A DNA stretch of 64,000 bases from Candidatus Omnitrophota bacterium (GTDB lineage: Bacteria; Omnitrophota; Gorgyraeia; JAFGHF01), in assembly GCA_042571705.1 (NCBI GenBank), contig JBHPFV010000001.1, positions 110,630 through 174,629 on the forward strand. Direction: 5' to 3'. A program made the translations under genes and the position numbers. Within the stretch, counting starts at the first letter, position 1, and every line of letters starts with the position of its first letter. Positions 13,424 to 14,974 of this stretch are shown here, piece by piece. The notes under the pieces were generated by a model. The model was not told where the DNA came from and searched no databases. It saw only the letters and a list, made by a program, of their open reading frames with translations.

Positions 13424-14974
13424 ATGAAAAAAGGAAACTCAGCAGAAATGGAAAGAAGAGGAGTCATCCGTTTAGAAAAGACTTTACCGGTCAAGCTCGA
13501 CGTTCCCGATTCGGCTATTCGCGGCGATGCCCTGGAGGCCTTAAGTAGAAATATCGGCGAGGACGGAGTATTTATCGAGACCGATATGGTCCAGGAAGAA
13601 AGCCTGAAGCTGGTCAAAGAGATGATCTTAGATTTAGAAATTGAGCTTTTGGGCCAGGGCGGCCGGATCAGGCCCCGGGGTGAAATTGTCTGGATCAGCA
13701 AAAAATCGCGTTCGCCGCAAAAGAAAAAGAACGGCATCGGAATCAGGTTTGTCCATATCAGCGCGCAGGAAAAAAAGGCGATTTCCATATTTATTTCCAA
13801 AGAGATGCTGGCTCAATCCGAATTTTTAGAAAAGGAAATCCCGCTGATCTCAAGAGTGCAGAAGGCCACTGATCGACAGCGCCGGAATCTAGAGATTTTG
13901 GATACGATCAGGAAGAACCGGCTGATCTCGCGGGCGGAGATTTCCAAAAATACGAACGTAAATATTGTTACAGTTTCTAATTATATCGACGGCTATCTGA
14001 AAAAAGGCCTGGTCTTTGAGCGGGGCTTGGATATTTCCACCGGCGGCCGCCGTCCCGAACTGGTCGAAATAAATCCGCAATACGGTTATGTCCTGGGGGT
14101 AGATTTAGGGCGGTTAAACAGGGAAGCGTCTCTAATGCAAGTGGTGGCCACAGATTTTACTACGCGGGTGTTAGCTAAGGCCTCCGGCGCCAGAGACAAC
14201 ATGAGTATCGAGGATTCGCTGGACAGCCTAAAAGATTTAATCAGCGGGGTTTTGCTTGATGAGCGGGTAGAAAGAAAAAGGGTCCGGGGGATTGGCCTTT
14301 CGATTTGCGGGATCATGGATAAGTTCGGCGGCACAGTCTGTAATCCCTTAGACGGAAGCACCGTGGCCAACTATGTGACCATAAAGAAAGAATTAGAAAG
14401 TGAGTTTAGTCTGCCCGTATTTGTGGAAAATAGCGCCAATTGCGCTTTATTCGCCGAAAGATGGACGGGCTTAAGTTTAGAGGTCAAGGCCGCGGATAAT
14501 ATTCTCTATATATTTTCCGATAATCAATGCGCGATCATGCTCAGGGGCGAGCTTTATTCCGGGGCCAGTAAAAGCGCCGGGCAAATAAGTTTTGCCCAGC
14601 CGCGCAATAATTCCAATCATCAAAATGGGGAGTTCTGTTGGATGAATCCCTCTTTTGATTGTATCTTGCGTTCAGGGATAGTGGATTTTTCTAAGGCCGC
14701 CGGCTCTAAAGAAGCCGCCGTTAACGAAGGCGCTAAATTAGGGGCCAAGGTGGCTTATTTGGTCAACGTGTTTAATCCTCAGGTGGTGGTGGTCAGCCGC
14801 TGCCTGGCTCAATTAGGCGATCCATTTTTAGACGGCATTCGCCGTACAGTTAACCGCTGGTCATACCGTGAGAGTGCCAACATCATGAGGATCATTCCGG
14901 CTACTTTGAGCGAGGAGGCCTGCGCTTTAGGGGCGGCTTCATTAGTGATTGAAACTGTATTTGCCAATATATAA
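13424..14974 (+). CDS. PilZ domain fused to a ROK-family (HTH + sugar-kinase-fold) transcriptional regulator
   Basis: N-terminus: RRGVIR (RRxxxR) and NIGEDG (a D/NxSxxG variant) within a PilZ-like beta-barrel (...GEIVWISKK...GIGIRFVHIS). Then a winged-HTH (LISRAEISKNTNVNIVTVSNYIDGYLKKGLV) and a ROK fold (GYVLGVDLG..., ENSANCALFAERW). The usual ROK CxCGxxGC zinc motif is not visible. Confidence 0.65.
   Translation: MKKGNSAEMERRGVIRLEKTLPVKLDVPDSAIRGDALEALSRNIGEDGVFIETDMVQEESLKLVKEMILDLEIELLGQGGRIRPRGEIVWISKKSRSPQKKKNGIGIRFVHISAQEKKAISIFISKEMLAQSEFLEKEIPLISRVQKATDRQRRNLEILDTIRKNRLISRAEISKNTNVNIVTVSNYIDGYLKKGLVFERGLDISTGGRRPELVEINPQYGYVLGVDLGRLNREASLMQVVATDFTTRVLAKASGARDNMSIEDSLDSLKDLISGVLLDERVERKRVRGIGLSICGIMDKFGGTVCNPLDGSTVANYVTIKKELESEFSLPVFVENSANCALFAERWTGLSLEVKAADNILYIFSDNQCAIMLRGELYSGASKSAGQISFAQPRNNSNHQNGEFCWMNPSFDCILRSGIVDFSKAAGSKEAAVNEGAKLGAKVAYLVNVFNPQVVVVSRCLAQLGDPFLDGIRRTVNRWSYRESANIMRIIPATLSEEACALGAASLVIETVFANI

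What the first reader, a model, noticed from the sequence alone, without database searches (positions are those of the whole stretch)
13424..14974. PilZ domain fused to a ROK-family transcription regulator
Seen:
- The N-terminal ~125 aa carry RRGVIR (RRxxxR) and NIGEDG (a variant of D/NxSxxG) in a PilZ-like barrel.
- A winged-HTH and a ROK sugar-kinase-like fold follow. I could not find the usual ROK zinc motif (CxCGxxGC) or the kinase glycine-rich ATP motif.

Established: PilZ domains bind c-di-GMP through those two motifs. ROK repressors (NagC, Mlc, XylR type) sense sugars.

Inference: this is a regulator that integrates c-di-GMP with, or instead of, a sugar signal. It sits between the fibre locus and the giant-protein locus and diverges from a small secreted-protein gene. 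I am not aware of a characterised PilZ-ROK fusion.
Basis: partly seen in the sequence, partly recalled or inferred. Interest (0 to 1): 0.6.

Follow-up and report, generated by a model that had tools for sequence, protein, structure and literature searches.

The report
c-di-GMP-sensing ROK-type transcription regulator

Summary
ORF 13424-14974 (+, 516 aa) has a PilZ domain, a winged HTH and a ROK domain; PilZ and ROK both pass Pfam's gathering scores. The PilZ model matches only solved PilZ structures. RxxxR is invariant in about 35 homologues. The second motif is N-I-[G/S/A]-E-G-G, with the canonical Ser often replaced (Gly here).

The ROK pocket has decayed only in the fusions. Asp337 and Glu387 are present in 83/83 PilZ-less sister proteins and 0/35 fusions. 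A C-lobe segment of about 40 residues is missing. There is no CxCGxxGC zinc motif.

The regulator lineage, with or without PilZ, sits in GH113/GH94/GH116/ABC glycan-utilisation clusters. The window has that block at 148-6071, with the regulator displaced downstream.

I also found a c-di-GMP-I riboswitch (13005-13092, minus strand) in the same intergenic region, on the divergent 92-aa secreted-protein gene, and a stand-alone PilZ gene at 25401-25763.

Best reading: a ROK-scaffold transcription regulator that senses c-di-GMP instead of sugar. Ligand binding, operator and regulon are untested. The family is known only from Omnitrophota and was not found in the searched literature. It is a new variant of a known kind, of moderate interest.

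The parts
13424..14974 (+). PilZ-wHTH-ROK regulator gene (516 aa). It is identical to NCBI MFC1631335.1, annotated 'ROK family protein [Candidatus Omnitrophota bacterium]'.
13454..13783 (+). PilZ domain (residues 11-120). The model shows a beta-barrel plus a C-terminal helix that runs to residue 132.
   Evidence: Pfam 30.5/33.7 bits against a gathering score of 22.5. Fold matches PilZ structures only.
13454..13471 (+). RRxxxR motif (R11 R12 G V I R16). R12 is present in 34/35 homologues and R16 in 35/35.
13550..13567 (+). Second PilZ motif, N43-I-G-E-D-G48. N43, I44 and G48 are invariant. The canonical Ser position is G in 22, S in 9 and A in 4 family members.
13871..14068 (+). Winged helix-turn-helix (residues ~150-215). 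It is the most conserved stretch of the protein, and NIVTVSNY and GGRRP are also invariant in the PilZ-less relatives.
   Evidence: HTH_24 is sub-threshold. The AlphaFold model is poor here.
14084..14971 (+). ROK sugar-kinase-like domain (residues ~221-516).
   Evidence: Pfam 61.2 bits. Fold matches to ROK kinases and repressors.
14432..14434 (+). Ser337, at the position of the ROK sugar-binding/catalytic Asp. Asp is present in 83/83 PilZ-less relatives and 0/35 fusions.
14582..14584 (+). Gln387, at the position of the Glu of the ROK ExGH motif. Glu is present in 83/83 PilZ-less relatives and 0/35 fusions.
14591..14686 (+). Variable, low-confidence insert that replaces the ROK zinc-motif region. 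It is deleted altogether in some family members.
13192..13220 (+). Sigma-70-like promoter of the regulator gene (TTGACA-17-TATTCT with an extended TG). It is conserved in L015.
13227..13250 (+). Inverted repeat AAAGTTAA-N8-TTAACTTT just after the -10 box. It is a candidate autoregulatory operator or a 5' hairpin. It is unique in the window and has one conserved counterpart, in L015.
13369..13421 (+). Predicted helix that sequesters the Shine-Dalgarno sequence (GACCUCUUAAG pairs with CUUAAGGAGGUC). The block is conserved in L001 and L011.
   Evidence: z = -3.4 for L001, -2.3 for L011, not significant for the window fragment
13005..13092 (-). c-di-GMP-I riboswitch aptamer in the leader of the divergent 92-aa gene.
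   Evidence: Rfam RF01051, 48.2 bits against a gathering score of 35, full model length. Also found near the fusion gene in L016, L010 and L015.
13114..13142 (-). Sigma-70-like promoter (TTGACA-17-TATACT, 11 of 12 matches) that would start transcription just upstream of the riboswitch.
12716..12994 (-). Divergent 92-aa gene with a signal-peptide-like N-terminus. It is controlled by the riboswitch. A weak homologue occupies the same position in L001.
148..6071 (+). Glycan-utilisation block: GH94, GH116, ABC solute-binding protein and a Mann_GBD-like protein. In related genomes the regulator gene (with or without PilZ) lies between GH116 and the SBP gene. This block is the likely regulon, by inference.
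25401..25763 (+). Stand-alone canonical PilZ protein (RRHSR and DLSQGG motifs), a further c-di-GMP receptor in the same genome segment.

Best explanation
The gene encodes a transcription regulator built on a ROK-repressor scaffold: a winged HTH for DNA binding and a ROK domain for oligomerisation. Its allosteric input has moved from the ROK sugar pocket to an N-terminal PilZ domain that binds c-di-GMP.

Shown by computation:
- the three-domain architecture;
- conservation of the PilZ ligand motifs;
- fusion-specific loss of the ROK pocket acids and of a C-lobe segment;
- a nearly invariant DNA-reading helix;
- linkage of the regulator lineage to GH113/GH94/GH116/ABC glycan-utilisation clusters;
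- use of c-di-GMP by this organism.

Inferred:
- c-di-GMP wraps the R12xxxR16 arm against the N43-G48 turn;
- this repositions the conserved helix (residues 114-150) that joins PilZ to the wHTH, changing operator affinity;
- expression of the beta-glycan foraging genes, and probably of the regulator itself, therefore follows c-di-GMP level (attached versus free state) rather than sugar availability.

The sign of regulation and the operator are unknown.
For: Domains and folds:
- PilZ and ROK both pass Pfam gathering scores.
- The PilZ fold matches only PilZ structures, many of them solved with c-di-GMP bound.
- The full model matches ROK kinases and repressors, including operator-bound Lmo0178.

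PilZ motifs: R12 is kept in 34/35 homologues, and R16, N43, I44 and G48 in 35/35.

ROK pocket:
- Asp337 is present in 0/35 fusions and 83/83 PilZ-less relatives. Glu387 shows the same 0/35 versus 83/83 split.
- The fusions lack a C-lobe segment of about 40 residues.
- The kinase phosphate loop and the zinc motif are absent.

DNA binding: the wHTH is the most conserved region.

Family structure: the 35 fusions form one split in a tree built on the ROK part alone.

Synteny:
- The gene lies at the 3' end of glycan operons, with gaps of -4 to 51 nt, in L003, L005, L009, L010 and L011.
- The distant fusion P0218 occupies the same GH116-[ROK]-SBP slot as the PilZ-less P0046.

c-di-GMP in this organism: a c-di-GMP-I riboswitch lies in the same intergenic region, and a stand-alone PilZ gene lies 10 kb away.
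Against: - No biochemical data exist.
- The Ser of [D/N]xSxxG is Gly in this protein, and Gly or Ala in 26/35 family members. Its effect on affinity is unknown.
- The Pfam PilZ score is modest (30.5 bits).
- No operator could be identified, and no motif links the regulator to any promoter except possibly its own.
- In the window the regulator is about 8 kb away from the glycan block, so the regulon assignment rests on other genomes.
- Many ROK-domain residues remain invariant (E335, E345, Y378, S384, G386), so a non-canonical ligand site cannot be excluded.
- The wHTH is poorly modelled (pLDDT below 50).
- No GGDEF motif was found within the 64-kb window (regex only).
Confidence: 0.6

Rival explanations
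1. Dual-input regulator. The ROK domain still binds a sugar or sugar-phosphate in a non-canonical way, and the PilZ domain adds c-di-GMP as a second signal, so the protein integrates both.
For: - Much of the ROK cleft remains invariant across the fusions (E335, E345, E376, Y378, S384, G386).
- The gene is embedded in sugar-utilisation operons.
- The distant fusion P0218 keeps the Glu of 'AGE' and the long C-lobe, so an intermediate dual-input state plausibly exists.
Against: - Both acidic pocket residues, kept in 83/83 PilZ-less relatives, are replaced in 35/35 fusions.
- The zinc-motif region is variable in length and is deleted in part of the family.
- About 40 residues of the C-lobe are missing.
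Confidence: 0.2
2. The PilZ domain no longer binds c-di-GMP. It serves as a protein-protein adaptor or oligomerisation module, as in type IV pilus PilZ, and the regulator is controlled by a partner protein, as Mlc is controlled by EIICB.
For: - The canonical Ser of the second motif is replaced by Gly or Ala in 26/35 members.
- The Pfam score is modest.
- From general knowledge, ROK repressors controlled by protein partners exist (Mlc). The Mlc/EIIB complex 3bp8 appears among the fold matches.
Against: - Non-binding PilZ domains typically lack both motifs (stated in 10.1101/814665). Here RxxxR, N43, the hydrophobic I44 and G48 are invariant over proteins that are only 55-73% identical overall.
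- Only small residues (G, S, A) occur at position 45, as expected for a ligand-contacting turn.
Confidence: 0.12
3. The protein is a c-di-GMP-regulated sugar kinase rather than a transcription regulator.
For: ROK kinases are the top structural matches alongside ROK repressors.
Against: - The catalytic Asp is absent in 35/35 fusions. The DxGxT phosphate loop reads D-L-G-R/P-L-N. ExGH is absent.
- A wHTH shared with ROK repressors is present and is the best-conserved region.
- The best sequence match is the operator-binding repressor Lmo0178.
Confidence: 0.03

Closest known systems
MrkH (Klebsiella pneumoniae), a PilZ-based c-di-GMP-dependent transcription activator
   Same: In both, a PilZ domain acts as the c-di-GMP sensor of a DNA-binding transcription regulator. 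MrkH structures appear among the fold matches of the N-domain. [quoted passage not shown]
   Different: According to that review, MrkH has no canonical HTH, unlike most c-di-GMP-responsive regulators it lists. Here the PilZ domain is N-terminal to a classical wHTH plus a ROK scaffold. No YcgR or PilZN-type domain was detected here.
ROK repressors NagC, Mlc, XylR and Lmo0178
   Same: They share the wHTH plus ROK architecture, and the genes sit in or next to sugar-utilisation operons. Lmo0178 matches at E 1e-30 over residues 156-511, and the folds match.
   Different: The fusion has an extra N-terminal PilZ domain. It lacks the CxCGxxGC zinc motif and ExGH, and the pocket Asp and Glu are lost. 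The NCBIfam NagC and Mlc equivalog scores (74.6 and 45.1 bits) are far below their cut-offs of 650 and 530.
PilZ-less ~419-aa ROK regulators of Omnitrophota (for example P0046)
   Same: They belong to the same lineage (35-46% identity), have the same recognition helix, and sit in the same GH94-GH116-[ROK]-SBP context.
   Different: They have no PilZ domain. They keep Asp337 and Glu387 (83/83) and the C-lobe segment of about 40 residues, so they presumably still sense sugar.
BadR (ROK) plus PlzA (PilZ) in Borrelia burgdorferi
   Same: In Borrelia a ROK repressor and c-di-GMP signalling converge on one carbohydrate-utilisation operon, glpFKD. [quoted passage not shown] PlzA is described as the only known c-di-GMP effector of that organism in the abstract of PMC8323883.
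   Different: There the two functions are in separate proteins. Here they are fused in one polypeptide.
MecR2 (Staphylococcus aureus), PDB 4ija
   Same: It is a ROK-fold regulatory protein and appears among the sequence and fold matches. From my own recollection, not checked here, it is a precedent for a ROK scaffold that does not use the sugar pocket.
   Different: MecR2 acts as an anti-repressor through protein contacts. It has no PilZ domain and no known link to c-di-GMP.

Membership tests
PilZ domain (PF07238), canonical c-di-GMP-binding type | Profile score above Pfam's gathering threshold | tested here: met
   30.5 bits for the whole protein and 33.7 bits for the N-terminal 140 aa, against a threshold of 22.5.
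PilZ domain (PF07238), canonical c-di-GMP-binding type | RxxxR motif at the N-terminal arm | tested here: met
   R12-G-V-I-R16, preceded by R11. R12 is present in 34/35 homologues and R16 in 35/35.
PilZ domain (PF07238), canonical c-di-GMP-binding type | [D/N]hSxxG motif (definition taken from 10.1101/814665) | tested here: inconclusive
   The motif reads N43-I44-G45-E-D-G48. N, the hydrophobic I and G48 are invariant, but the Ser position is Gly here (family: G 22, S 9, A 4).
PilZ domain (PF07238), canonical c-di-GMP-binding type | Six-stranded beta-barrel with a C-terminal helix | tested here: met
   The model (pLDDT 73.5) has strands followed by helix 114-133. The top 36 Foldseek PDB hits are all PilZ domains.
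PilZ domain (PF07238), canonical c-di-GMP-binding type | Binds c-di-GMP | not testable with these tools
   This needs DRaCALA, ITC or MST on purified protein.
ROK family (PF00480) | Profile score above the gathering threshold, and the ROK/ASKHA fold | tested here: met
   61.2 bits against 22.9. Foldseek E values are 2e-17 to ROK glucokinase and 4e-17 to the Lmo0178 repressor.
ROK family (PF00480) | Zinc-binding CxCGxxGC motif and the preceding ExGH | tested here: not met
   Both are present in 0/35 fusions. They are also absent from all 83 PilZ-less Omnitrophota relatives, which have a CW...C variant instead.
ROK family (PF00480) | Sugar-pocket Asp (E-N-D) and Glu (ExGH) | tested here: not met
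   The residues are Ser337 and Gln387. Asp and Glu are present in 0/35 fusions and 83/83 PilZ-less relatives.
ROK repressor subgroup (NagC/Mlc type) | N-terminal winged HTH preceding the ROK domain | tested here: met
   The protein aligns with Lmo0178 from its residue 21, and with NagC from its residue 21. HTH_24 on its own is sub-threshold.
ROK repressor subgroup (NagC/Mlc type) | Equivalog-level similarity to NagC or Mlc (NCBIfam cut-off) | tested here: not met
   NagC scores 74.6 bits against 650, and Mlc 45.1 bits against 530.
ROK sugar kinases | DxGxT phosphate-1 loop and the catalytic Asp | tested here: not met
   The loop reads D227-L-G-R-L-N. The catalytic Asp is replaced by Ser.
c-di-GMP-I riboswitch (RF01051), for the neighbouring element at 13005-13092 (-) | Covariance-model score above Rfam's gathering threshold over the full model | tested here: met
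   48.2 bits against 35, covering model positions 1-87 of 87. The GGC-variant model scores below its own threshold (45.3 against 59).
MrkH-like PilZ transcription factors | PilZN/YcgR-type N-domain plus a C-terminal PilZ domain | tested here: not met
   No PilZN or YcgR domain was detected, and the PilZ domain is N-terminal. The resemblance is in mode of action only.

The most novel reading that the evidence does not exclude
In one Omnitrophota lineage, c-di-GMP has replaced the sugar inducer as the allosteric effector of a ROK repressor. Expression of a beta-mannan/beta-glucan foraging locus (GH113/GH94/GH116/ABC) would then be tied to the cell's attached-versus-free state rather than to substrate availability. 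The same locus carries a c-di-GMP riboswitch on a divergent secreted-protein gene, which would give a two-tier protein-plus-RNA c-di-GMP regulon. The family also preserves evolutionary intermediates: PilZ-less proteins with an intact pocket, P0218 with PilZ and a partly intact pocket, and the window's clade with PilZ and a decayed pocket.
Probability: 0.4. Interest if true: 0.6.

Novelty: new variant of a known kind. Interest (0 to 1): 0.5.

Why it matters
[quoted passage not shown] Among the regulators that the 2025 review lists, MrkH is the only one it describes as combining a PilZ domain with a DNA-binding domain.

A PilZ-wHTH-ROK regulator would add a new receptor class. It would be a clear natural example of effector swapping on a common repressor scaffold, because the family preserves apparent intermediates. 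It would also give a first handle on c-di-GMP signalling and its link to polysaccharide foraging in Omnitrophota, a phylum known almost only from metagenomes.

The prediction is cheap to test, because the protein can be synthesised and assayed in vitro.

Tried and rejected
1. The palindrome CCGGGTTAAATTAACCCGG (13021-13040) looked like a ROK operator. It does not recur in the window beyond chance (6 matches against 3.1 expected) or in the loci. It is a hairpin of the c-di-GMP riboswitch.

2. The inverted repeat AAGTTAA-N8-TTAACTT at the regulator's own promoter has only one conserved counterpart (L015) in 1.28 Mb of related loci. It remains a candidate only.

3. I enumerated all 6+6 palindromes with spacers of 0-16 nt across 84 sequences. 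The recurrent hits I inspected were conserved coding sequence (the ROK helix 'NIVTVSNY' and an ABC permease) or a likely structured RNA. One plausible operator-like site, AATAGTTnGA...AAACTATT, occurs only in three distant PilZ-less loci.

4. The intergenic region downstream of the regulator has a hairpin (GACTGATAG-N11-CTATCAGTC) in the window, but it is not conserved in homologous loci.

5. The stand-alone 112-aa PilZ upstream of the sugar operon in L001 is not the donor of the fused PilZ. The two share no significant similarity.

6. The window has no second ROK paralogue and no ORF with a GGDEF motif.

7. The PilZ-profile search with the word index returned only 10 stand-alone PilZ proteins and did not list the fusions themselves. 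The exhaustive search was needed to find the distant fusions.

8. A sequence search of the PDB with the downstream coiled-coil protein gave only generic coiled-coil hits.

9. The six ~190-aa proteins at 5487-9236 are not close paralogues (13-20% identity).
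Full report
OBSERVATION

A strong Shine-Dalgarno sequence (AAGGAGG) sits 4 nt before the ATG.

Pfam assigns a PilZ domain to residues 11-120. It scores 30.5 bits against a gathering score of 22.5, and 33.7 bits when the N-terminal 140 aa are scanned alone. Pfam also assigns a ROK domain (61.2 bits against 22.9) and a sub-threshold winged HTH at residues 154-197. NCBIfam places the C-terminal three quarters nearest NagC and Mlc, but far below the equivalog cut-offs (74.6 against 650).

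RRGVIR is residues 11-16 and NIGEDG is residues 43-48. An identical protein is in NCBI as 'ROK family protein [Candidatus Omnitrophota bacterium]' (MFC1631335.1). That annotation does not mention the PilZ part. JGI's automatic names for some homologues mention both parts.

IS THE N-TERMINUS A LIGAND-COMPETENT PilZ DOMAIN?

About 35 clusters of full-length homologues (55-73% identity) share the architecture. Across them:
- R12 is kept in 34/35, and R16, N43, I44 and G48 in 35/35.
- The position of the canonical Ser is G in 22, S in 9 and A in 4.

The motif definition RxxxR plus [D/N]hSxxG, and the statement that non-binding PilZ domains lack these motifs, come from 10.1101/814665.

An AlphaFold model of residues 1-135 (pLDDT 73.5) gives a beta-barrel followed by a helix at 114-133. 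Its top 36 Foldseek matches in the PDB are all PilZ domains. They include c-di-GMP complexes of BcsA, Alg44, MapZ, YcgR, PlzA and MrkH, and the best match is MotI/DgrA (E 1.8e-5).

Membership of the PilZ family is therefore well supported. Ligand binding is probable but unproven, because of the Ser-to-Gly change.

THE ROK MODULE

A profile of the family matches the ROK repressor Lmo0178 over residues 156-511 (E 1e-30). The full-length model matches ROK glucokinases, operator-bound and inducer-bound Lmo0178, Mlc and MecR2.

The wHTH (residues ~150-215) is the best-conserved part of the protein. The presumed recognition helix NIVTVSNY and the GGRRP wing are also invariant in a large sister family of about 419-aa PilZ-less ROK proteins from Omnitrophota, which are 35-46% identical.

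Comparison of the two groups is the most informative result:
- The ROK pocket Asp (position 337) is present in 83/83 PilZ-less proteins and 0/35 fusions, where it is S in 25, A in 8, N in 1 and T in 1.
- The Glu of the ExGH motif (position 387) is present in 83/83 PilZ-less proteins and 0/35 fusions, where it is Q in 33.
- The fusions also lack a C-lobe segment of about 40 residues, and some lack the whole loop that replaces the zinc motif.
- Neither group has CxCGxxGC or ExGH.
- The kinase phosphate loop DxGxT is degenerate in both.

On a neighbour-joining tree of the wHTH-ROK part alone, the 35 fusions form a single split. Acquisition of PilZ thus coincides with decay of the canonical effector pocket.

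HOW WIDE IS THE ARCHITECTURE?

In one genome per species of GTDB (185,579 species), nine fetched loci (L009-L017) encode fusion-type proteins of 58-66% identity. One of them is cut at a contig end. More than 70 loci carry PilZ-less relatives. All are Omnitrophota MAGs or MAGs labelled 'uncultured Planctomycetia'.

An exhaustive HMMER search of 1.84 billion 50%-identity representatives with the PilZ profile collapses the close family to one representative. It also reveals more distant full-length homologues:
- P0218 (545 aa, 36% identity);
- P0196/P0279 (480 aa, 32%);
- P0175 and P0212 (about 435 aa);
- a truncated P0198.

These keep RRxxxR and a [D/N]x[S/G/A]xxG motif. P0218 has canonical NISKDG, keeps the Glu of 'AGE' and keeps the long C-lobe, so it looks like an intermediate form. 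Its ROK part is closer to PilZ-less proteins (up to 54% identity) than to the window's clade. The number of PilZ gains and losses in the wider family is therefore unresolved.

Literature searches found no description of a PilZ-ROK protein. [quoted passage not shown]

GENOMIC CONTEXT AND LIKELY REGULON

The window encodes, in order:
- GH94 (148-1734), GH116 (1731-3890) and an ABC solute-binding protein (3905-5155);
- a Mann_GBD-like protein and five other ~190-aa proteins (5487-9236);
- a 1101-aa TPR/SdrD_B protein (9410-12715);
- a divergent 92-aa gene with a signal-peptide-like N-terminus;
- the regulator;
- a 392-aa membrane-anchored coiled-coil protein;
- a 2820-aa TPR protein.

In homologous loci the fusion gene sits at the 3' end of same-strand glycan genes (GH2, a GH72-like protein, GH94, ABC transporter). 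The gaps are often only -4 to 51 nt, in L003, L005, L009, L010 and L011.

The PilZ-less P0046 lies in the order GH113 - GH94 - GH116 - ROK - SBP (L007). The distant fusion P0218 occupies exactly the same slot (L089). P0279 sits after GH113 - Mann_GBD - GH113 - GH94 - GT2 (L090).

The window has the GH94-GH116-SBP-Mann_GBD block with only 14 nt between GH116 and SBP and no ROK gene there. It has no second ROK paralogue anywhere in the 64 kb. The most economical reading is that this regulator lineage controls the beta-glycan utilisation locus, and that in the window's genome the gene has been displaced about 9.5 kb downstream and has acquired its own promoter. This is inference from synteny.

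THE INTERGENIC REGION 12995-13423

Rfam finds one family above threshold in the whole window. It is a c-di-GMP-I riboswitch at 13005-13092 on the minus strand (48.2 bits against 35, full model length).

- A sigma-70-like promoter (13142 to 13114, 11 of 12 matches) lies just upstream of it.
- The Shine-Dalgarno sequence (GAGGUG) of the 92-aa gene directly abuts the 3' end of the aptamer. This suggests translational control.
- The aptamer has A where the 'GGC' variant model has G, and it falls below that variant's threshold.
- The riboswitch recurs within 10 kb of the fusion gene in L016 (=L001), L010 and L015.

On the plus strand, a promoter (13192-13220) conserved in L015 is followed by an inverted repeat, AAAGTTAA-N8-TTAACTTT (13227-13250). 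The repeat is unique in the window and has one conserved counterpart, in L015. It is either a candidate autoregulatory operator or a 5' hairpin.

The leader also carries a conserved block (GACCUCU) that pairs with the Shine-Dalgarno region. The fold is significant for L001 (z = -3.4) and L011 (z = -2.3), but not for the window fragment.

A canonical stand-alone PilZ gene lies at 25401-25763 (50 bits). Together these features show that the organism uses c-di-GMP. Within 64 kb this genome segment carries three c-di-GMP receptors of two kinds.

MECHANISM

Most likely (confidence about 0.6): a ROK-scaffold transcription regulator whose effector is c-di-GMP, sensed by the N-terminal PilZ domain. 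The signal would pass through the conserved helix (residues 114-150) to the adjacent wHTH.

The rivals are:
- a dual-input sugar-plus-c-di-GMP regulator (0.2);
- a PilZ domain that no longer binds the nucleotide and acts as an adaptor (0.12);
- a regulated kinase (0.03).

A functional parallel with separate proteins exists in Borrelia. There the ROK repressor BadR acts directly on the glp operon, and the same operon is positively regulated by the c-di-GMP pathway (10.1101/2022.11.01.514788).

WHAT REMAINS UNKNOWN

- Ligand binding, the operator, the regulon and the sign of regulation are all untested.
- All operator searches were negative or ambiguous.
- The wHTH region of the AlphaFold model is unreliable because the alignment is shallow.

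VERDICT

Automatic annotation already records the architecture, but I found no description of it in the literature searched. It is a new variant of known kinds (PilZ receptors, ROK repressors, c-di-GMP-dependent transcription factors). Interest is moderate (0.5).

Noticed in passing
window 13005-13092 (-): A c-di-GMP-I riboswitch (RF01051, 48.2 bits against a gathering score of 35) lies in the leader of the divergent 92-aa secreted-protein gene. Its own promoter is at 13142 to 13114, and the gene's Shine-Dalgarno sequence abuts the 3' end of the aptamer. It is the only Rfam hit above threshold in the window. It recurs near the fusion gene in L016, L010 and L015.
   Followed up: yes
window 25401-25763 (+): A stand-alone canonical PilZ protein (Pfam 50 bits; RRHSR and DLSQGG motifs) lies between a 192-aa protein and the BamD-like gene. 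It is 51% identical to a PilZ protein at the same position in L001. The listed TTG start of the BamD-like ORF (25687) overlaps it and is probably too far upstream.
   Followed up: partly
window 13369-13421 (+): The leader of the regulator gene can form a helix that sequesters the Shine-Dalgarno sequence (GACCUCUUAAG pairs with CUUAAGGAGGUC). The GACCUCU block is conserved in L001 and L011, whose leaders fold better than shuffled controls. This suggests translational control of the regulator.
   Followed up: partly
window 148-6071 (+): The GH94-GH116-SBP-Mann_GBD block matches operons in L007 and L089 that carry the ROK gene between GH116 and SBP. Here that slot is empty (14 nt between the genes). 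The GH94 ORF lacks the N-terminal GH94 beta-supersandwich domain, so the gene is probably cut by the window start or disrupted.
   Followed up: partly
window 15068-16246 (+): A 392-aa protein has an N-terminal membrane anchor and a long coiled coil. Its conserved C-terminal domain of about 70 aa (GRVIKVN..KFVVIDIG..GV..GM.F.V.R) has no Pfam or PDB match. It lies immediately downstream of the fusion gene in every long fusion locus examined (44% identity in L003) and appears to have its own promoter.
   Followed up: partly
window 9410-12715 (+) and 12716-12994 (-): The 1101-aa TPR/Cu_amine_oxidN1/SdrD_B protein and the small convergent riboswitch-controlled gene occur as the same pair in L001 (a 1143-aa SdrD_B protein and a 91-aa gene with a riboswitch). 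They may form a c-di-GMP-controlled surface module.
   Followed up: no
window 16001-24000: AT skew is very strongly positive (0.32-0.44) across the 2820-aa TPR protein gene, and negative (-0.25) across 28001-30000 (MurJ). These are compositional oddities of single genes, not of the replicon.
   Followed up: no
L005 18635-21212: Downstream of the fusion locus in this related contig there is an Lcl_C-domain protein, a bAvd accessory protein and a reverse transcriptase (RVT_1) next to a 1730-aa protein. This layout is typical of a diversity-generating retroelement.
   Followed up: no
P0353 (855 aa): One Omnitrophota protein combines a ROK domain with SBP_bac_8/SBP_bac_1. This is probably a read-through or fusion of the adjacent ROK and solute-binding-protein genes of the same operon.
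   Followed up: no
L079 1395, L081 1102, L085 874: In three distant PilZ-less loci a 23-bp palindrome, AATAGTTnGA-N-TCAAACTATT, lies about 9 kb upstream of the ROK gene. It resembles XylR-type ROK operators and could be the operator of that sub-clade.
   Followed up: no
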